Made by a program: the position numbers and the translations under genes. DNA of 64,000 bases from Methanolobus sp. WCC5 (lineage in GTDB: Archaea > Halobacteriota > Methanosarcinia > Methanosarcinales > Methanosarcinaceae), in assembly GCF_045690325.1 (NCBI RefSeq), contig NZ_CP146981.1:1044853-1108852 (forward strand), written 5' to 3'. Shown piece after piece: positions 29,721 through 39,123 of this stretch; position 1 is the first letter of the stretch; every line of letters begins with the position of its first letter. The notes beneath the pieces were generated by a model. That model did no database searches. It worked only from the letters and a program-made list of their open reading frames with translations, and was not told the origin of the DNA.

Positions 29721-31244
29721 TCACTCTAATTTCTGTCCGCAGTTGCCACAGAACTTCTCGTCTGGTCCTGTGTCACGGCCGCACTTAGGACATTTCCTCT
29801 TTCCTGCACCTATGCTGGAACGCTGTATAATACTGTCCTGTATCGTGGTATTGCTTATATTGTACTGGGTCAGGGAATCATCGACAAATAGTTTGATATC
29901 CGTCCTTTTTTCGATCTCTTCAAGGATCTTGTGGTAGAAACCTGTTAGTGCTTCTTCCTTTTCGGCCCAGGCTTTGACGATCAGGCGGGATTTGCGTTTA
30001 CCCACAACCTCAATATATGCTGCATACTTAAGGCCTGCCACACCCTCTGCATAGAACCTTGCAACACCGGTGAACAGTTGCTGTGTTGAGGTTATCTCCG
30101 GTGTTATCATGTACATGTTCATATCTTTCAGTATGCGGGTTGCAATATCAAAGAGATTCTCTGCCGGTATCTCCAGATCCTTGCTATCCTCTTCTGCTAC
30201 CATCATAGAACTTATGTCCAGTCTCCAGGTTGCCTCATCAGTCTCTGTTACCCTGAGGACGGGACAGACAATATCCACCATCTTATTGCTCAGATCCAGC
30301 TGAACATGCTTTTTCTGGCTATAATCATAGTAGCGTATATTTCCTGCTATAATGCAATTACCGCATTCACCGGTGGGCCGGATAAAGAACGTTACGGTTT
30401 TACTTTCAGCCGGTTGCAGCATGGGTATGATCTTCTTACTTTCCTTGATAAGGAAGACCTCAGGAACAAAAATGTTTATGCTTATATCACCCATTGGCTC
30501 TTTTGACGTGTTCTCAACCTTGATCTTATAAAGTATACTGGCGCCTTTGTACTGGACAGCAGACCTGATAACAACAGGATCGTTTATAGGAGATGGTTGC
30601 AAAATCGAAGCTTCAAAAACAGATTTGGAAGCATTTTCATCTGCAGCCGGGGTTTTTTCAATAACAGGCACAGATGATGTCATGGATTTTTCATCCATTC
30701 CTTTTGGAGTCTTTTTATTTTTTTTCTTCTTTGAGATCTTGCGCAACACAAAAAAAGCAATTAGAACTATTACAACAGTACCGACCATTCCATAGAACTC
30801 ATCTTCTGCCGAAGTACCAGAATAGTCATAGGAGTCGGTATAGTATCCTGTCTGCTTCTCCCTGACCTCCGGCTCATCAGAGGTCACGGGATAGTCCGGA
30901 TATATGTATATGTCCGAGATATCAACATAATCGTAGTAATCATCATAGTATATATCATCGATCCTGAACTGAAGCGTAAGAGATCTGTCCTGATAATAAA
31001 AATAATCCCCTCTTGCATAATACTGATCCATGAGGACAGTATCATAATAGGAAACAGTGAACCTTACAATTTCGTTGTAGGTATCTATGTCCAATACATT
31101 CAGGTGATATCCGTCTCTGACCTCTGCAATCTCACCTTCCATGAGAGTAACCTCATAATCACTGGCAGATGCGGGGCATAAGCTCAGCATGATACTACAT
31201 GCCAGCAAGATCAGGACGAGGGGTTTAAGAGATCTCCGGGTCAA
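29721..31244 (-). CDS. Type-I membrane protein with Tyr/Asp-rich ectodomain and cytoplasmic C-terminal zinc ribbon
   Basis: N-terminal signal peptide and a single TM helix (VVIVLIAFFVL followed by a Lys-rich stretch). The C-terminus is CPKCG...CGNCG, preceded by the motif TIQDSIIQRS, which is shared with the protein at 34698-36440. Confidence 0.6.
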   Translation of the reverse strand: MTRRSLKPLVLILLACSIMLSLCPASASDYEVTLMEGEIAEVRDGYHLNVLDIDTYNEIVRFTVSYYDTVLMDQYYARGDYFYYQDRSLTLQFRIDDIYYDDYYDYVDISDIYIYPDYPVTSDEPEVREKQTGYYTDSYDYSGTSAEDEFYGMVGTVVIVLIAFFVLRKISKKKKNKKTPKGMDEKSMTSSVPVIEKTPAADENASKSVFEASILQPSPINDPVVIRSAVQYKGASILYKIKVENTSKEPMGDISINIFVPEVFLIKESKKIIPMLQPAESKTVTFFIRPTGECGNCIIAGNIRYYDYSQKKHVQLDLSNKMVDIVCPVLRVTETDEATWRLDISSMMVAEEDSKDLEIPAENLFDIATRILKDMNMYMITPEITSTQQLFTGVARFYAEGVAGLKYAAYIEVVGKRKSRLIVKAWAEKEEALTGFYHKILEEIEKRTDIKLFVDDSLTQYNISNTTIQDSIIQRSSIGAGKRKCPKCGRDTGPDEKFCGNCGQKLE

Positions 31245-31354: not shown

Positions 31355-32647
31355 TCAAACATCTGTGAGTCTTTTGCCACACTGGCTGCAAAAACTTGCC
31401 TCCGAAGGGATTGTTGACCCACATCCCGGACATTTTCTAACTGTGTGTGAAGTCCTGCCCACGGCAGCTCCCATCATAGCGGCATCAAGTTCCTGTCTGC
31501 GGTAAGAATCTGCACGTTCCCTGTCTTCGACTTCCATCATAAACCTGACACGATCTTCTTTTGCAAGAGCTTCTCCCTGTTTGATCTTTGCCAGGGCTTC
31601 GAGCTGCTCCGGTGTCATGCGACCATATTCGCGACCCTCGCTCACAGTCTTTGCAACATCGGCCCCTCCTGATCCAGTTATGTGTTTAAGGTATTCCATG
31701 TCACGTCCGTGTTCACGATCCCGCATGTCCTGTTCGACCTCAAGCTCAGCACGCATACCTTTTGCCTTTGCGATTTTTAGTTCCTCTTTGAGGCTTATAG
31801 CTTCCCTAGCTTCCCTTATATCAGCTTCATATTGCAGTCTTTCAGCCTCAAGTTCAGAGCTGACATCCTTCAATCTCTGATCACGATGGAAATCTTTTTC
31901 AGTTGCCACAGTTGCATGGCCTGCACGCAGACCTGCCACTTCTTCCCGGCCCCTGCGCTCAAGATCACCTTCCACTGACAGGGTCTCAAGTTCTGCAAGC
32001 TCTTCCTTTGTCTGCAGATCATTTGTGGCCTGCATTACCTTACCATAAGAACCAAGGTCCCACTGGATTGTGTATTTCAGGATTTCCAGCCCCCACATGG
32101 AAAAAGTGGAACGCAGCCGCATCTCAAGCTCATTCTCAAGGTTCAGGCGAAGGTCCCGGTTCCCGTAAATACTTTCAACATCTTCCTGTCTTATCCCGGG
32201 TTCAAGTACAAGTGTCAGTACCTCGCTTTCAATGCGCCCGTATATATCCTGCACTGAAAGGTCCCTGATCCCTTTCCTGTCTGGTGTCGCATAGGCATAC
32301 AACATCTGGAAGAAACGTTTCGGATCCTGTATCCTGAATCTCAGCAGACCGCCACAGGCTATTCTCTGGTCATCACTGGTCCACAGTTCTTCCTGTGTCC
32401 ATTGCATGTCCTTAGGAGATGTATCCATCAGCGCAACATCCACATCCTTTCCGATATTGCCAGGCTTTAGCAGGCCGCCAATTTGTAATTTACCACTGTC
32501 CACTATCTCTTCAACAACACCATTCTTTACCATGGCTGCCTTTTCATTGGGCGAGAGTATCACAGCTTTGCTGAAAAAGCCCCCGACCTCCTTTTTAGGA
32601 ACCACCCTGGCAATATCATCTGCTTCTCTTTTCCATTTGAATGCCAT
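31355..32647 (-). CDS. SPFH/band-7 (flotillin-like) protein with coiled-coil region and C-terminal zinc ribbon
   Basis: N-terminal ~200 aa match the SPFH pattern (…LLRFRIQDP…WGLEILKYTIQ). A long charged coiled coil follows, then a C-terminal CPGCG...CSQCG. Confidence 0.6.
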   Translation of the reverse strand: MAFKWKREADDIARVVPKKEVGGFFSKAVILSPNEKAAMVKNGVVEEIVDSGKLQIGGLLKPGNIGKDVDVALMDTSPKDMQWTQEELWTSDDQRIACGGLLRFRIQDPKRFFQMLYAYATPDRKGIRDLSVQDIYGRIESEVLTLVLEPGIRQEDVESIYGNRDLRLNLENELEMRLRSTFSMWGLEILKYTIQWDLGSYGKVMQATNDLQTKEELAELETLSVEGDLERRGREEVAGLRAGHATVATEKDFHRDQRLKDVSSELEAERLQYEADIREAREAISLKEELKIAKAKGMRAELEVEQDMRDREHGRDMEYLKHITGSGGADVAKTVSEGREYGRMTPEQLEALAKIKQGEALAKEDRVRFMMEVEDRERADSYRRQELDAAMMGAAVGRTSHTVRKCPGCGSTIPSEASFCSQCGKRLTDV

Positions 32648-32702: not shown

Positions 32703-32715
32703 ATTATATATATTG
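32703..32715 (+). promoter_or_regulatory. Candidate archaeal TATA box (TATTATATATATT) in the divergent intergenic region upstream of the RHH/ESCRT-III-like/Vps4-like operon
   Basis: AT-rich TATA-like motif about 55 bp upstream of the ATG at 32764. Also sits in the 116-bp divergent spacer shared with the SPFH gene. Confidence 0.3.
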
Positions 32716-32763
32716 TTTTCCATTGTATACATAAGAATACAAAAGGAATCAAGTTGGAATAAC

Positions 32764-32919
32764 ATGGTAAATTCTTATCCTGTAAGTGCAAGGATCTCAG
32801 AAGATAGTAAAGTATATCTGGACAAATTAGTAGAAATGGGAATAGCGATCAACCGATCAGAAGCCATGAAACTTTGTATCAGGTACGCAAAACAGAAAAA
32901 GATGGAGGAGGAATTGTAA
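32764..32919 (+). CDS. Small ribbon-helix-helix (CopG-like) DNA-binding protein
   Basis: 51 aa from ATG 32764, with a beta-strand (VSARISEDS) followed by two helices. Its stop codon overlaps the start of the next gene (TAATG). Confidence 0.5.
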   Translation: MVNSYPVSARISEDSKVYLDKLVEMGIAINRSEAMKLCIRYAKQKKMEEEL

Positions 32920-33488
32920 TGGGACTGACAAATCCATTTAAGAAGATATCACCCGAAGAGCTTAAGACAAAACTGGCAATTTCCGAGCAAAGGCTGACGG
33001 CACGGGAAAAAGAACTGATGAAAAAACAGATCAAATCCAGGGAAGAAGCAAAAGAAGCGCTTGCAAAAGGAAATGACAGGGAGTTCAGGGTTGCTTCAAG
33101 AAGATTTTCTCTTGTGGAGGGGCAGGTGAACACCATCAGCAGCATGGTAGAGATGGCACAATCCATGACAGATGTAATTGAAATGCAGACCGGGCTCAAA
33201 GAAGTCGTTGAGATAGGCCAGGACCTGGGAAAGTGGCAGAAACAACTTGGTTTTGACACTTCAAAACTAGAAGGTGCTGTAACTAACATAAGGACCTCCA
33301 TGGAAAAGGTTAACACAGCAACAAGTATGATGACAGCTTCCATGGATGCGGCAATGGGCGGTGGCACTGAACTTAGTGAGATGCAGGATTCGCTGCGATC
33401 AGAACTCCTTGCAGAACTCTCCAGTGAACAGCCTGCAAAGGATGAGCTTTCAAAGAAGATAGAATCAGAAATGGCAAACAGTGAATAA
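32919..33488 (+). CDS. ESCRT-III/Snf7-like (PspA/Vipp1 superfamily) helical protein
   Basis: 189 aa, all-helical. Basic N-terminal helix, then M/S/T/A-rich helices (SSMVEMAQSMTDVIEMQTG...AVTNIRTSMEKVNTATSMMTASMDAAMGG) matching the Snf7 pattern. Acidic C-terminus with a possible MIM-like helix (DSLRSELLAEL). Strong GGAGGAGG SD 5 nt upstream. Confidence 0.55.
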   Translation: MGLTNPFKKISPEELKTKLAISEQRLTAREKELMKKQIKSREEAKEALAKGNDREFRVASRRFSLVEGQVNTISSMVEMAQSMTDVIEMQTGLKEVVEIGQDLGKWQKQLGFDTSKLEGAVTNIRTSMEKVNTATSMMTASMDAAMGGGTELSEMQDSLRSELLAELSSEQPAKDELSKKIESEMANSE

Positions 33489-33540
33489 AAGAAACCAGAT
33501 TTCCCAAGAATTTAATTATTCATTATACTGAGGTGCCCAT

Positions 33541-34701
33541 TTGAACCCAGCAATCACTTTTGCCGCCCAGGCCCGCGGATATGCAAAAGCTGCAAAGGAT
33601 CTGGAAGACAGAGGAGAGAATGAACGTGCCCGTGAACTATACCTGAAAGCTGCCAAGCTCTATAATGATGCTTCAATGATGACAGATGAAGGCATTGACC
33701 GGAATACCCAGCGTGACCTGGCAGAACATCTTTTTGCTAAGGCTCAGTCGCTTAAAAATCCGACTGCACTGTCTTCAGGAAAAAACGCACATGGTAAAAA
33801 AGAAGCATCAAACAATGATGAGTCTTCCATTTCAAAGGATGATGTATTTCTCAAAGAGATACCAAATATCGGCTTTTCAGATATTGGCGGCCTTGAACAG
33901 GTGAAGGAGGAAATACGCAAAGCCATTATCTATCCTTTTACACATAAAGAACTTTACCAGATGTACGGACAGAAAGCCGGAGAAGGGATCTTGCTCTATG
34001 GCCCTCCTGGCTGTGGTAAGACAATGATGGCAAAGGCAGCGGCAAAAGAATGCGAAGCGGATTTCATCAGCGTCAAGACCAGCAGCATTGTAAGTAAATG
34101 GGTCGGTGCTTCGGAGAAGAATGTCAAACAGGTCTTTGACATTGCCCGCGGGGGGGAGAGATCCATCATCTTTTTTGACGAAATAGATTCCATAGCTTCA
34201 AGACGCAGTGAAAGCGAGGACTATGCAAAAAGAGTGGTCAATGAACTTCTTGCCCAGATGGATGGTGTGGATACTGCGTCTGACAACCTTCTGGTGCTGG
34301 CAGCTACCAATGAACCATGGGCTATCGATCCGGCCCTGAGGCGTCCGGGGCGTTTCAGCAAACTTGTATTTGTCCCTGAACCAGACCAGGATGCAAGAAA
34401 AGCAATTCTGGGAATACATCTTCGAAAAAGGCCGGTAGACAGTGATGTGGACATAGATGCCCTTGCACGGCTAACAGAATCCTATTCCGGAGCAGACCTT
34501 GCAGCTATATGCAGGGAAGCAGCAGACATACCCCTGGGAGAAGCACTGAGGGGAGGGGAGCCAAGAAAAATACGGCTTCGTGATTTTGAAGCTGTTCTAA
34601 AGAAACGTAAACCTTCAATTGTTAGCTGGTACATAGAGGCCAGATCAGCAGTTCTGAAGACCGGAGAGGGAGAAGTGTTTGAGGAAATGCTGAAAAAGTG
34701 A
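33541..34701 (+). CDS. Vps4-like AAA+ ATPase with N-terminal MIT domain
   Basis: N-terminal three-helix MIT-like region (AQARGYAKAAKDLEDRGENERARELYLKAAKLY). Single AAA module with Walker A GPPGCGKT and Walker B IIFFDEID. The SRH region ATNEPWAIDPALRRPGRF belongs to the meiotic/Vps4 clade. TTG start with a GAGGTG SD. Confidence 0.8.
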   Translation: MNPAITFAAQARGYAKAAKDLEDRGENERARELYLKAAKLYNDASMMTDEGIDRNTQRDLAEHLFAKAQSLKNPTALSSGKNAHGKKEASNNDESSISKDDVFLKEIPNIGFSDIGGLEQVKEEIRKAIIYPFTHKELYQMYGQKAGEGILLYGPPGCGKTMMAKAAAKECEADFISVKTSSIVSKWVGASEKNVKQVFDIARGGERSIIFFDEIDSIASRRSESEDYAKRVVNELLAQMDGVDTASDNLLVLAATNEPWAIDPALRRPGRFSKLVFVPEPDQDARKAILGIHLRKRPVDSDVDIDALARLTESYSGADLAAICREAADIPLGEALRGGEPRKIRLRDFEAVLKKRKPSIVSWYIEARSAVLKTGEGEVFEEMLKK

Positions 34702-36440
34702 TACAAATGACATTCAAACTGTCACATTTAAATCCCCGGAATAATTTACGCATCGGCATTTATACCGGATTGGTTTTTGGTCTTGCAGAAGGATTCCCCG
34801 GTGCTATAAAAGGTGCAATTATCGGTTTGATACTTGCTTTTATTACTGCAATGATAGTTCAAAAAGTACTGAACAGAAGACTTGGGATGGAAAGACAGGA
34901 AGATAGCGTAATGTCCTATGCATTCTTCCTGGGAATGATCATCGCAATACCTGGAGCAGTGTTATTTGGTGCGTTCAAACCTGCACCAGTGATTTCACTG
35001 TTTGTGTGTACAATTGTAGCTCTTCGATCTGGCTCAAAAATAAAGAAAATCATGCAGGAAATCAATGCTGAAAAAGAAAATGAAATGCTAGAAAAACTTG
35101 AACTGGAAGAAGCGGCAAGTGATGCAGTTGAAATAACCGTAGAAGTGCAGCAACCACTTAGAACTGAAACTGAAAACCCGGTAAAAATAACCATCAAAAA
35201 TCCGTCTGACCTGCCCATAACTGACATTTCAATTATAGCTAAATGCACCCGTCTTATCCACTGTGACGAACCCGAAGTAAGCATAGATATAATACCACCT
35301 GGATCATCGAGTTATACTGCTATTTTCATCTACCCGAGAATTTCGGATGAAATTGATATCGGACAATTATTCATTGCATACAACATCAACGGAAACTATT
35401 ACGATAAAGACCCAATAGATATTGGAATTTATGAGGCAACAAACGGCCAGAATGTGAACAATGGTAGTATTGGGAATGTAGAAACCCATTTACAGATTAT
35501 CAGGGAAACTGAATTCTACCAGGGGTTTATTCGCCTGAAGATGGCAGTTAATAATAGATCACCTCTGGTTGTTAATGATGTAACACTTGAATTTGACTTT
35601 GATGAGCAGCTTTTCAGGATAGACAGGTTTGAACCTGCATATTCGGAAAAAAACAACCGCTTGATCCTCGGGAATATCCCCGGCAATAATTCAAAGTCAG
35701 TCATGGTTTATTTTGATCCCATGCTGTGCTCAAAGTCCTCAGAGATAAAATGTAGAATCTTTTATAAGGATGCACATGGTAAGCTCCTTAACACGGAAAT
35801 GAAGCCAAAAAGAATCGAAGTTACATGCCCCATCATGAAAACGGATTCCGATATTAATATAGGCATTCTCCGGGAACTTGTAGCATCACTTCCTTTCAGG
35901 GACAGTAAGGTTTACAGAATTAAGTCCGAGCTTGATATTGCAACCATTATGGCCATATGCCGCGAAATGGTACAACGCCATGATATCAGGCATGTGAGAA
36001 CATTGAAGACCATGGATGGAAAAAACTATGAGACCTGGTACTATGGAAAGACAAAAGTAAATGACCATGACCTGATACTCAAAATCACTGCTTCTGAAGA
36101 GACAGGATGTATAGAGATATTTGGTGCCACAAGGACCGCTGAATCACTTGTAGGCATGCTTGCTGAGTTTGGGCGTGAATTCTGCCGGGAGATGAAAACA
36201 AGCCCTGGTGGAAAAAATGATGTCACACCGATCGTCAACGTGACAATCAAAGACTCCATAATTCAGCGTAGCAATCTGTTGAATTCGTGTGACCTTCACG
36301 GAAATTGTACAGGAGATGTGGTCATTGAAGATAGTGTGGTGCAGAACACAGACATGGGAGCAAATTTTTGTACCTCGTGTGGTTCTAAAGTAAGTAAGGG
36401 GGCAAATTACTGCATAGAATGTGGCACCAGGATTATTTAA
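34698..36440 (+). CDS. Multi-TM membrane protein with Ig-like beta repeats and C-terminal zinc ribbon
   Basis: N-terminal TM helices, a coiled coil, and repeated beta-rich modules (…IDIGQLFIAYNINGNYYDKDPIDIG…). The C-terminus is TIKDSIIQRS…CTSCG…CIECG. The likely ATG start at 34707 lies 5 nt after the Vps4-like stop. Confidence 0.6.
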   Translation: MIQMTFKLSHLNPRNNLRIGIYTGLVFGLAEGFPGAIKGAIIGLILAFITAMIVQKVLNRRLGMERQEDSVMSYAFFLGMIIAIPGAVLFGAFKPAPVISLFVCTIVALRSGSKIKKIMQEINAEKENEMLEKLELEEAASDAVEITVEVQQPLRTETENPVKITIKNPSDLPITDISIIAKCTRLIHCDEPEVSIDIIPPGSSSYTAIFIYPRISDEIDIGQLFIAYNINGNYYDKDPIDIGIYEATNGQNVNNGSIGNVETHLQIIRETEFYQGFIRLKMAVNNRSPLVVNDVTLEFDFDEQLFRIDRFEPAYSEKNNRLILGNIPGNNSKSVMVYFDPMLCSKSSEIKCRIFYKDAHGKLLNTEMKPKRIEVTCPIMKTDSDINIGILRELVASLPFRDSKVYRIKSELDIATIMAICREMVQRHDIRHVRTLKTMDGKNYETWYYGKTKVNDHDLILKITASEETGCIEIFGATRTAESLVGMLAEFGREFCREMKTSPGGKNDVTPIVNVTIKDSIIQRSNLLNSCDLHGNCTGDVVIEDSVVQNTDMGANFCTSCGSKVSKGANYCIECGTRII

Positions 36441-36514
36441 GGCCATATTTTCACTAATATATTTATAATTTTAAATACATAAGATACTTGTTCATTCCTG
36501 TAAAGGTGGTTCAA

Positions 36515-37777
36515 ATGAAACTGGGACCTCTGGATGATATTATAAAATCACTTTCTTATGCCCTTCATAACGAGGCAGGTGCCAGGGTAGGATTGTTCTT
36601 TCAATTCTACGTCTTTTTTTGGATTGTGATGTCGTCATTCTTTGTTGTGACACGTATACTCTCAATTGACGAAAGACCAAATCCCATCTATGTTGCCAGT
36701 GCACCATTCTACATCCTGTTTCTTTATGTTCCGCTGTATGCTTTCTGGATATATGAAAAAAAGATCGGCATCGAAAAAAGAAGAGTCAAAGAGATGCAGT
36801 TAGTTTCTTCCGTAAATATAGAATACAGGTTTCCAGAGCCAGTGGATATCGGCATGGCTGCTATGCTGTATTTCAGGATCAATAACCCTACTGAAAAACC
36901 AATAGACAACATCTGGATACGGGCGGTTTTCCCGGCAACTGTTCGCTGTGACAGGCCTGTCCTGAGTCTTGGTTCCCTTGAACCAATGTCATCTTTATCT
37001 TCTTCTTTTTCTTTTATGCCACTCACATCAGGAAATTTGTCAATGGGCTATTGTGACCTTTACTTTGAGATCAACAGGCATAAACACCAGAGACCACCGT
37101 TATTTTTCGGGAACATTGATATTATCCATTCATATCTTGGATTGGATGTTCAAATGCCAAAGACACTCCGATTCGGGCACAGCTCTGTGATATCCATCAG
37201 AATATGGAACCACTCGAATCAGAATCTGGAAAAACTGCACACTAAATGTAATTTCCAAAAAGGAATACAATATGATACAGCTTTTTCCGATACAAGAACT
37301 GTACCCCAGGGTGCCTTATTTGAAGTGACACATCAGATAACCCCAACAACTGCAGGTACAATTGACCTGGGATATTTTGAAATCATATTTGACATTGAAG
37401 ATAACAAATGTAAAATAGGACCGGTGAATTTCGGTGAATATATGATCCGTGTTCCTGAAATCGATGTTAAGATCAATATCCCGGAAACATTATATAGCAC
37501 GGTTGGAAATACCATTGGAATATACGTTGAGAACAAATCTGAGGAAGTAATCCATAACATCTGTTTCAATAGCTGTTTTTCTTCATTTATAGAATGCCAT
37601 AGGCCAAACGTTTGTATCACTGACATCCTCCCATATTCATCCGGATATACTTCACTGATGATAAAACCCGTAAATGCAGGTCAGATCGACCTGGGCAACC
37701 TTAATATTTCCTTTGAAGTGAATGATATAACATTACAGAAAGAACCCATAGACATGGGCACACATGGGGTTGTGTAA
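36515..37777 (+). CDS. Membrane-anchored hypothetical protein with Ig-like beta repeats (paralogous to the domains of the upstream gene)
   Basis: N-terminal TM helices. Repeated motifs (GTIDLGYFEIIFDIEDNKCKIGPVNFG, GQIDLGNLNISFEVNDITLQKEPIDMG) resemble those in 34698-36440. AAGGTGG SD before the ATG at 36515. The track ORF starts with TTG at 36488. Confidence 0.55.
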   Translation: MKLGPLDDIIKSLSYALHNEAGARVGLFFQFYVFFWIVMSSFFVVTRILSIDERPNPIYVASAPFYILFLYVPLYAFWIYEKKIGIEKRRVKEMQLVSSVNIEYRFPEPVDIGMAAMLYFRINNPTEKPIDNIWIRAVFPATVRCDRPVLSLGSLEPMSSLSSSFSFMPLTSGNLSMGYCDLYFEINRHKHQRPPLFFGNIDIIHSYLGLDVQMPKTLRFGHSSVISIRIWNHSNQNLEKLHTKCNFQKGIQYDTAFSDTRTVPQGALFEVTHQITPTTAGTIDLGYFEIIFDIEDNKCKIGPVNFGEYMIRVPEIDVKINIPETLYSTVGNTIGIYVENKSEEVIHNICFNSCFSSFIECHRPNVCITDILPYSSGYTSLMIKPVNAGQIDLGNLNISFEVNDITLQKEPIDMGTHGVV

Positions 37778-37851: not shown

Positions 37852-39123
37852 ATGGAAACACTTAAAGATCCAAAAGAGCTGGAAGCGGTCAACAGGCAAA
37901 CCGTAATCGATAATCTTAATGAGGTTTATAATGCTGTTGAAAAGCTGATCCAAAGAGCCTATGCAAAGAAAGAAAGCGAACTTAATTCCCGGCTTCGCAA
38001 CATAAGGACTGATGTGTCACAGCTCCTATCAGACATCAGGAATAAAAGCATAGATGGTTTTTCCGGAAAGAAAGGAACACTTGATGATTTCTATAGAACG
38101 GGAGAAGAATTGTTGAAGGATTCATACAAAATGAGAGATACATTCTCTTCTTTAACAGGTTCAATGGAGAAGATAGATATCTTTTTACTGGAGGACCTAA
38201 TCGATAATTTTAAAAAGGAATATAATAACCGCATCATAGTAGACCAGAATATTCTCAAAGAGTTCAGGTTAAAACAAATGGAAGCAGCGAGTGCGCAACG
38301 CGTTATGGCAGGTGGCAACGATCTTGCGGTAAAAAAACAAACTCCGATACCTGACCCCAAACCCTGGAATGAAAGGGATAAAATCACAAGCTCTTTTGTA
38401 ATCTCAAAAGAAAGCCCCGGGTCTTCTACACCAGCTTTCTGGACAATGCCAAAGAACAGCAAAGAAGCAGATGTAAAGGAAGATATTGAGACAAATGTGC
38501 TTTCAAAGATCTACAATTACATGAACGTACTGGAGAACAAATATTCAACATACCAGCCGGAAGTATCATTTGCCGGTGAATATATAGGGAACCGAAAATG
38601 GAAAAAGAAAGTATCTGACAAATTCATTTCAGGCAGTGTTGTGGACAGCTTTTTGAAACCCATTCTGACCTTTGAAACCTGTTGGCGTCCATTTGATGAA
38701 CTGAGAACTGTCATGCAATTCGTTCAGAATGAAGCAAGCACAGTTCCGGAAGGAAAATACAAGAGCATATGCCTGCTGAATTTTAACTGGGATGAGGATA
38801 TCGTGGAATGGGCAGAAAACTATGTTCATCCGCGCCTGATATTATATCTTTATGACCTTAAATCAGACAGTATATGGTTCAATGAAAAAATTGAACTTGC
38901 CGGAAAGCTGAAGGTATGGCACAATACGGATACTTATGTAACTCTTCAAAGTGAGCTTGAGGCGCTGACAGAACAGGATGAAGGCTTTAATGCAGCTGAT
39001 GTGATGAAAGTTACAGGATTGAACATTGAAGGTGCCAACAATTATATTTCAGAAATGCTTAAAAGTAAAACTATTATAGATCTGGGATTTGGTACTTCCC
39101 GATATAAAGGAATGAAAAAGTAG
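37852..39123 (+). CDS. Hypothetical soluble protein (N-terminal coiled coil, C-terminal HTH-like segment)
   Basis: 423-aa ORF in the same orientation, 75 bp after the previous gene. No family recognised. Confidence 0.5.
   Translation: METLKDPKELEAVNRQTVIDNLNEVYNAVEKLIQRAYAKKESELNSRLRNIRTDVSQLLSDIRNKSIDGFSGKKGTLDDFYRTGEELLKDSYKMRDTFSSLTGSMEKIDIFLLEDLIDNFKKEYNNRIIVDQNILKEFRLKQMEAASAQRVMAGGNDLAVKKQTPIPDPKPWNERDKITSSFVISKESPGSSTPAFWTMPKNSKEADVKEDIETNVLSKIYNYMNVLENKYSTYQPEVSFAGEYIGNRKWKKKVSDKFISGSVVDSFLKPILTFETCWRPFDELRTVMQFVQNEASTVPEGKYKSICLLNFNWDEDIVEWAENYVHPRLILYLYDLKSDSIWFNEKIELAGKLKVWHNTDTYVTLQSELEALTEQDEGFNAADVMKVTGLNIEGANNYISEMLKSKTIIDLGFGTSRYKGMKK

What the first reader, a model, noticed from the sequence alone, without database searches (positions are those of the whole stretch)
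33541..34701. Vps4/katanin-clade AAA+ ATPase with MIT domain in a euryarchaeal methanogen
It has a single AAA module with GPPGCGKT, DEID and SRH ATNEPWAIDPALRRPGRF, preceded by an MIT-like helical bundle of about 75 residues. This is the architecture of Vps4/CdvC, not of the usual methanogen AAA proteins (PAN, Cdc48). An acidic C-terminal helix of the neighbouring ESCRT-III-like protein (…MQDSLRSELLAELS…) could be its MIM. It uses a TTG start with a GAGGTG SD.
Basis: partly seen in the sequence, partly recalled or inferred. Interest (0 to 1): 0.65.

Follow-up and report, generated by a model that had tools for sequence, protein, structure and literature searches.

The report
Known Vps4-like ATPase in Methanolobus
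The gene encodes a Vps4-like ATPase with an MIT domain, sitting next to an ESCRT-III-like gene in a Methanolobus genome, but this "Meth_adaptin" ESCRT system was already described by comparative genomics in 2024, including for this genus.

Summary
ORF 33541-34701 (+) encodes a 386-aa protein with a TTG start and a GAGGTG Shine-Dalgarno site. It has one AAA module and an N-terminal three-helix bundle that folds like an MIT domain. The gene 53 nt upstream (32919-33488) encodes a divergent ESCRT-III/Snf7-like protein.

My NJ tree groups the family with Vps4/CdvC/spastin, not with Cdc48 D1/D2, PAN or FtsH (84-99% bootstrap). The sequence is still mosaic: it has ATNEPW like Vps4, but keeps the RRPGRF of the classical clade, and raw similarity is highest to Cdc48 D2.

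The whole locus is conserved in more than 30 Methanosarcinales species. It holds an SPFH protein with a Zn ribbon, adaptin/Ig-like membrane proteins with Zn ribbons, a small RHH gene, ESCRT-III, the ATPase and a coiled-coil protein.

It is not new. The protein is identical to WP_407356950.1 of Methanolobus sp. WCC5. Its 84-86% identical orthologues from M. psychrotolerans and M. vulcani are listed by accession in the Vps4 tree set of Makarova et al. 2024 (mBio), next to the Methanosalsum zhilinae Vps4 that represents the "Meth_adaptin" clade.

The proposed MIM-MIT contact is plausible but could not be tested. No experimental work on this system turned up in two searches of the paper library.

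The parts
33541..34701 (+). Vps4-like AAA+ ATPase, 386 aa, TTG start (arCOG01307-type, 'Meth_adaptin' clade)
   Evidence: ORF. Pfam AAA E 1.6e-43 and AAA_lid_3. Identical to WP_407356950.1 of Methanolobus sp. WCC5. Orthologues P0003 and P0007 are WP_094228177.1 and WP_091710184.1, both listed in the Vps4 set of Makarova 2024.
33530..33535 (+). Shine-Dalgarno-like GAGGTG, 5 nt upstream of the TTG start
   Evidence: Sequence read.
33547..33750 (+). MIT-like three-helix bundle (residues 3-70)
   Evidence: AF2 model pLDDT 91 with helices 3-23, 27-47 and 51-70. Foldseek hits to MIT domains, TM 0.75-0.82. Pfam MIT in 17/17 family members at E<=1; the window's own score is E 0.025.
33988..34551 (+). 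AAA module (P-loop domain, residues 150-279) plus lid (302-337), with Walker A GPPGCGKT, pore loop SKWVG, Walker B DEID, and ATNEPW...RRPGRF
32919..33488 (+). Divergent ESCRT-III/Snf7-like protein, 189 aa (arCOG00454-type)
   Evidence: Pfam Snf7 in 21/25 homologues at E<=1 (best 3.1e-5; own 0.045, residues 18-168). AF2 model has five helices. Top Foldseek hits are CdvB, Asgard ESCRT-IIIB, CHMP1B and Snf7. UniRef names some homologues 'Snf7 family protein'. The M. zhilinae, Methanococcoides methylutens and Methanohalophilus portucalensis ESCRT-III proteins are listed under arCOG00454 in the paper; one search found homologues (76-84% identical) in the latter two species.
33384..33419 (+).
   Evidence: L159, E162, L163 and E166 are invariant in 25 sequences. 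Helix 151-168 in the model. Binding was not tested.
33447..33473 (+). C-terminal helix L-x-x-K-I-x-x-E-M (residues 177-185): a second, MIM1-like candidate
   Evidence: An LxxK[IL] pattern recurs in most sequences of the family alignment. Helix 171-188 in the model. The comparison with the MIM1 consensus comes from my own knowledge and was not tested.
32713..32919 (+). Small ribbon-helix-helix (CopG-like) gene. Its stop overlaps the ESCRT-III ATG by 1 nt. The true start may be the internal ATG at 32764.
   Evidence: Pfam RHH_1 E 0.0014. Conserved immediately upstream of ESCRT-III in 37 of 40 loci. TAATG overlap.
31355..32647 (-). SPFH/Band-7 protein with coiled coil and C-terminal Zn ribbon, transcribed divergently (arCOG15283-type)
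   Evidence: Pfam Band_7 E 4.6e-7 and Zn_Ribbon_1 E 5.7e-6. Conserved in the loci. Same position as WP_013898576 in M. zhilinae.
29721..31244 (-). Membrane protein: hydrophobic segments 4-29 and 148-172, weak adaptin/coatomer appendage-like region, C-terminal Zn ribbon (arCOG15284-type)
   Evidence: Coatamer_beta_C E 0.0042, GAE_BBS1 E 0.018 and Zn ribbon. Hydropathy scan. Conserved in the loci.
34698..36440 (+). Membrane protein, 580 aa: hydrophobic stretches between residues 31 and 109, Ig-like region, weak adaptin-C2 hit, C-terminal Zn ribbon. Paralogous to the 507-aa and 429-aa proteins.
   Evidence: Present in only a subset of loci.
36488..37777 (+). Membrane protein, 429 aa, with repeated Ig-like domains
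   Evidence: Weak Transglut_C and TRAPPC13_C hits. BLASTP paralogy to the 580-aa protein, E 5e-12. Variable presence across loci.
37852..39123 (+). Soluble 423-aa protein, last gene of the operon. Occupies the slot of the M. zhilinae 'coiled-coil + C-terminal wHTH' protein.
   Evidence: Follows the ATPase in nearly all loci. M. zhilinae WP_013898572 is annotated that way in the paper's table. Here there is only a faint C-terminal HTH hint, E 0.049.

Best explanation
This is the Vps4-like (ESCRT-IV) ATPase of the euryarchaeal 'Meth_adaptin' ESCRT system.

Inferred mechanism, by analogy with Vps4/CdvC: the protein forms an ATP-driven hexameric ring. [quoted passage not shown] The AAA ring then pulls subunits out of membrane-bound ESCRT-III polymers, remodelling or recycling them.

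The co-encoded SPFH protein with a Zn ribbon and the adaptin/Ig-like membrane proteins with Zn ribbons probably define where on the membrane, and on which cargo, the polymer assembles. The small RHH protein is a likely transcriptional regulator of the operon.

The cellular role is most likely vesicle formation or protein sorting, or membrane repair, rather than cell division.

Shown here: domain folds, motifs, phylogenetic position, gene order and its conservation. Inferred: oligomeric state, MIT-MIM contact, polymer disassembly and cellular role.
For: - **ATPase module.** One AAA module with intact Walker A/B, pore loop SKWVG, sensor-1 N and SRH arginines.
- **MIT domain.** AF2 pLDDT 91. Foldseek matches Vps4, CdvC, MITD1 and calpain-7 MIT domains at TM 0.75-0.82. 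Pfam MIT hits 17/17 relatives at E<=1. The NCBIfam CdvC model aligns end to end, residues 5-367.
- **Neighbour.** The upstream gene is ESCRT-III-like, 53 nt away on the same strand.
- **Synteny.** The order SPFH | RHH-ESCRT-III-AAA-...-p423 is conserved across Methanolobus, Methanomethylovorans, Methanococcoides and other Methanosarcinaceae. The ESCRT-III-then-AAA pair also occurs in a Thermoplasmata MAG.
- **Tree.** In the NJ tree {family + Vps4/CdvC/spastin} separates from {Cdc48 D1, D2, PAN, FtsH} at 98% bootstrap, and 84-99% under eight samplings and models.
- **Shared signatures.** ATNxPW and a short pore-loop-2 region, as in Vps4/CdvC.
- **Literature.** Orthologues WP_094228177.1 and WP_091710184.1 (86% and 84% identical) are in the Vps4 tree set of Makarova et al. 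2024. The syntenic M. zhilinae locus is their Meth_adaptin representative.
Against: - Pairwise similarity of the AAA module is highest to Cdc48 D2 (46%), then PAN (45%). Yeast Vps4 is 44% and CdvC 38-41%. The top NCBIfam score is CDC48 (273 bits) against CdvC at 243 bits, far below its 650-bit cutoff.
- The family keeps RRPGRF, whereas the four Vps4/CdvC/spastin sequences aligned lack the PG. No Vps4_C hit was found at E<=0.01, and the alignment shows no insertion where yeast Vps4 has its beta domain.
- My tree is NJ on simple distances with few Vps4-side references, so long-branch attraction is not excluded.
- The MIT-MIM contact was not tested.
- No experimental data on this system turned up in two searches of the paper library.
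Confidence: 0.8

Rival explanations
1. It is a single-module offshoot of Cdc48/VAT that works as a general protein unfoldase, for example feeding the proteasome. The N-terminal helices would be a TPR-like adaptor unrelated to ESCRT-III, and the gene neighbourhood would be coincidental.
For: Highest pairwise identity and NCBIfam score go to Cdc48 D2. RRPGRF and the SKW pore loop are shared with archaeal VAT D2. Databases name it 'transitional endoplasmic reticulum ATPase'. TPR_2 also hits 14/17 N-termini weakly.
Against: The family never groups with Cdc48 D2 in bootstraps (0/200). The fold search returns MIT domains. ESCRT-III-AAA adjacency is conserved in about 30 species. The C-terminus has no HbYX motif for proteasome docking.
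Confidence: 0.07
2. It is a CdvC-type cell-division ATPase that drives cytokinesis together with the ESCRT-III-like protein.
For: Same MIT+AAA architecture and ESCRT-III adjacency as crenarchaeal cdvB-cdvC. The CdvC model aligns over the full length.
Against: It scores 243 bits against the 650-bit equivalog cutoff. None of the locus genes scanned matched a CdvA family; the locus instead has SPFH and adaptin-like membrane proteins. Methanosarcinales divide with FtsZ (established knowledge, also stated for Euryarchaeota in PMC8970359). Makarova et al. assign protein sorting or vesicle roles to this clade.
Confidence: 0.05
3. It is a katanin/spastin-like severing enzyme acting on tubulin-family filaments (FtsZ/CetZ).
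For: MIT+AAA is also the katanin/spastin architecture. The M. zhilinae orthologue was deposited as 'Microtubule-severing ATPase'. Katanin p60 N-domains appear among the fold hits.
Against: In the tree the family lies outside the Vps4/CdvC/spastin group, not with spastin. The conserved neighbour is ESCRT-III, not a tubulin homologue. The database name is an automatic label.
Confidence: 0.03

Closest known systems
Vps4 of the 'Meth_adaptin' ESCRT clade (Makarova et al. 2024, mBio 15:e00335-24; M. zhilinae WP_013898573, M. psychrotolerans WP_094228177.1, M. vulcani WP_091710184.1)
   Same: Orthologues at 65-86% identity. Same MIT+AAA architecture. Same locus logic: ESCRT-III upstream, a divergent SPFH protein with a Zn ribbon, adaptin-like proteins with Zn ribbons, and a coiled-coil protein downstream.
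   Different: In this genome two extra paralogous membrane/Ig-like genes (580 aa and 429 aa) sit between the ATPase and the last gene. None of the genes I scanned between 27.3 and 41.4 kb is ProX, unlike in M. zhilinae. The small upstream RHH gene is not mentioned in the paper's main text.
Crenarchaeal CdvC and eukaryotic Vps4
   Same: N-terminal MIT three-helix bundle, one AAA module, ATNxPW, a short pore-loop-2 region, a gene next to ESCRT-III, and grouping in the tree.
   Different: Only 38-44% identical in the AAA module. Retains RRPGRF, with no two-residue deletion. No insertion where yeast Vps4 has its beta domain, and no Vps4_C hit. No CdvA match among the locus genes scanned, so probably not a division machine.
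Cdc48/VAT D2 module
   Same: Closest by raw similarity (46%). Shares the SKW pore loop and RPGRF. Consistent with the published idea that Vps4 arose from Cdc48.
   Different: One AAA module instead of two, and an MIT domain in place of the Cdc48 N domain. Separated from D2 in all bootstraps.
Bacterial PspA with the SPFH protein YdjI (membrane-stress system)
   Same: An ESCRT-III-superfamily protein encoded next to an SPFH protein. The parallel is drawn in the paper.
   Different: The system here has a dedicated Vps4-like ATPase, and its ESCRT-III is Snf7-like: Pfam PspA_IM30 was not among the 25 families matched by most members.

Membership tests
Vps4/CdvC (ESCRT-IV, arCOG01307) | N-terminal MIT three-helix bundle | tested here: met
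   AF2 pLDDT 91. Foldseek to Vps4, CdvC, MITD1 and calpain-7 MIT domains, TM 0.75-0.82. Pfam MIT in 17/17 relatives at E<=1, but the window's own score is below the cutoff (15 bits against 30).
Vps4/CdvC (ESCRT-IV, arCOG01307) | Single classical-type AAA module with intact catalytic motifs | tested here: met
   One AAA module plus AAA_lid_3. Walker A/B, sensor 1 and SRH arginines present.
Vps4/CdvC (ESCRT-IV, arCOG01307) | AAA module groups with Vps4/CdvC rather than Cdc48, PAN or FtsH | tested here: met
   NJ bootstrap 98%, and 84-99% in robustness runs. NJ only, with four Vps4-side references. The published ML tree includes the same-genus orthologues.
Vps4/CdvC (ESCRT-IV, arCOG01307) | Encoded next to an ESCRT-III gene (criterion 2 of Makarova et al.) | tested here: met
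   The ESCRT-III-like gene ends 53 nt upstream on the same strand. The pair is directly adjacent in roughly two thirds of the 40 loci fetched; in the Methanoperedenaceae-type loci the ATPase is kilobases away or outside the fetched stretch.
Vps4/CdvC (ESCRT-IV, arCOG01307) | Signatures of the Vps4/spastin/katanin ('meiotic') clade: SRH without PG (RR-RF), Vps4_C helix, beta-domain insertion | tested here: not met
   RRPGRF is retained. There is no insertion where yeast Vps4 has its beta domain and no Vps4_C hit at E<=0.01. ATNxPW and the short pore-loop-2 region are shared. I did not check whether the archaeal CdvC references carry a beta domain or a Vps4_C hit, so those two features may not be defining for archaeal members.
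Vps4/CdvC (ESCRT-IV, arCOG01307) | NCBIfam equivalog NF041006 (cell division protein CdvC), cutoff 650 bits | tested here: not met
   243 bits. It is therefore not an equivalog of the crenarchaeal division protein.
Vps4/CdvC (ESCRT-IV, arCOG01307) | MIT binds a MIM of ESCRT-III, and the ATPase disassembles ESCRT-III polymers | not testable with these tools
Two conserved candidate helices exist.
'Meth_adaptin' ESCRT system (Makarova et al. 2024) | Orthology to the clade's Vps4 proteins | tested here: met
   P0003 is WP_094228177.1 (86% identical), P0007 is WP_091710184.1 (84%), and the M. zhilinae protein is 65% identical. All are named in the paper's tables.
'Meth_adaptin' ESCRT system (Makarova et al. 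2024) | SPFH protein with coiled coil and Zn ribbon in the locus | tested here: met
   ORF 31355-32647 (-): Band_7 E 4.6e-7 and Zn ribbon E 5.7e-6.
'Meth_adaptin' ESCRT system (Makarova et al. 2024) | Two adaptin-appendage-like proteins, one with a Zn ribbon | tested here: inconclusive
   Only weak Pfam hints: Coatamer_beta_C 0.0042, GAE_BBS1 0.018, Alpha_adaptinC2 0.078. Position and Zn ribbons fit.
'Meth_adaptin' ESCRT system (Makarova et al. 2024) | ProX substrate-binding protein in the locus | tested here: not met
   None of the genes I scanned between 27.3 and 41.4 kb is ProX. The flanks are PdxS/PdxT, a PPOX-like protein, S6e and IF-2.
Cdc48/VAT | Two tandem AAA modules and an N-terminal double-psi-barrel domain | tested here: not met
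   One AAA module and an MIT N-terminus.
PAN / proteasomal ATPase | N-terminal coiled coil plus OB domain, and a C-terminal HbYX motif | tested here: not met
   The N-terminus is a three-helix bundle. The C-terminus ...EEMLKK has no HbYX. PAN groups with Cdc48 D1 and FtsH in the tree.

The most novel reading that the evidence does not exclude
The module may be wired to osmotic or membrane-stress signalling rather than constitutive sorting.

- In Methanoperedens-type relatives the same MIT-AAA protein carries a C-terminal diadenylate cyclase (DAC) domain with DGA and GTRHS motifs.
- The M. zhilinae locus carries the osmolyte-binding protein ProX.
- An SPFH protein and a conserved RHH regulator are always present.

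On this reading, ESCRT-III remodelling would be coupled to c-di-AMP production. The MIT domain might also recognise an unusual, near-invariant alpha5-type helix (QDSLRSELLAEL) rather than a canonical MIM1 or MIM2.
Probability: 0.15. Interest if true: 0.55.

Novelty: already known. Interest (0 to 1): 0.25.

Why it matters
Euryarchaeal ESCRT systems bear on how the Vps4/ESCRT-III machine arose, apparently from Cdc48 plus a PspA-like protein. They also bear on what it did before it was recruited for cell division or eukaryotic sorting.

This locus is a clean, complete example of the "Meth_adaptin" system, which Makarova et al. proposed resembles the ancestral archaeal state. The mosaic ATPase sequence fits that picture: Vps4-like ATNEPW, but Cdc48-like RRPGRF.

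The identification itself is already in the literature, so it adds no new knowledge. What remains open is experimental, and no experimental work on this system turned up in two searches of the paper library. The DAC fusion and the conserved RHH gene are small new leads.

Tried and rejected
- **N-terminus against PDB sequences.** The single sequence gave nothing significant. A profile gave only weak hits: calpain-7 MIT 0.02 and Sulfolobus Vps4 MIT 0.58. The fold search was needed.
- **The look-up of encoding contigs for the M. zhilinae orthologue** found nothing. The bioRxiv copy of the paper holds no supplements, so I used the mBio copy.
- **Methanolobus psychrophilus locus** in the paper's table is a different, solo adaptin gene and is not this system.
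- **Exhaustive representative search** was dominated by multi-AAA proteins whose scores add up. It was of little use beyond P0219, P0312, P0239 and P0251.
- **Tree scripts.** The first script crashed. The first FtsH-rooted run used a wrong FtsH fragment and is discarded; one search is the corrected run.
- **Reference sequences.** I used them only after PDB searches showed them identical or near-identical to solved chains.
- **Pore loop SKW** was considered as a Vps4 signature and rejected, because archaeal VAT D2 has it too.
- **PspA/Vipp1 membership of the neighbour** was considered. Snf7 is the Pfam family matched by the most members, and PspA_IM30 was not among the 25 families matched by most members.
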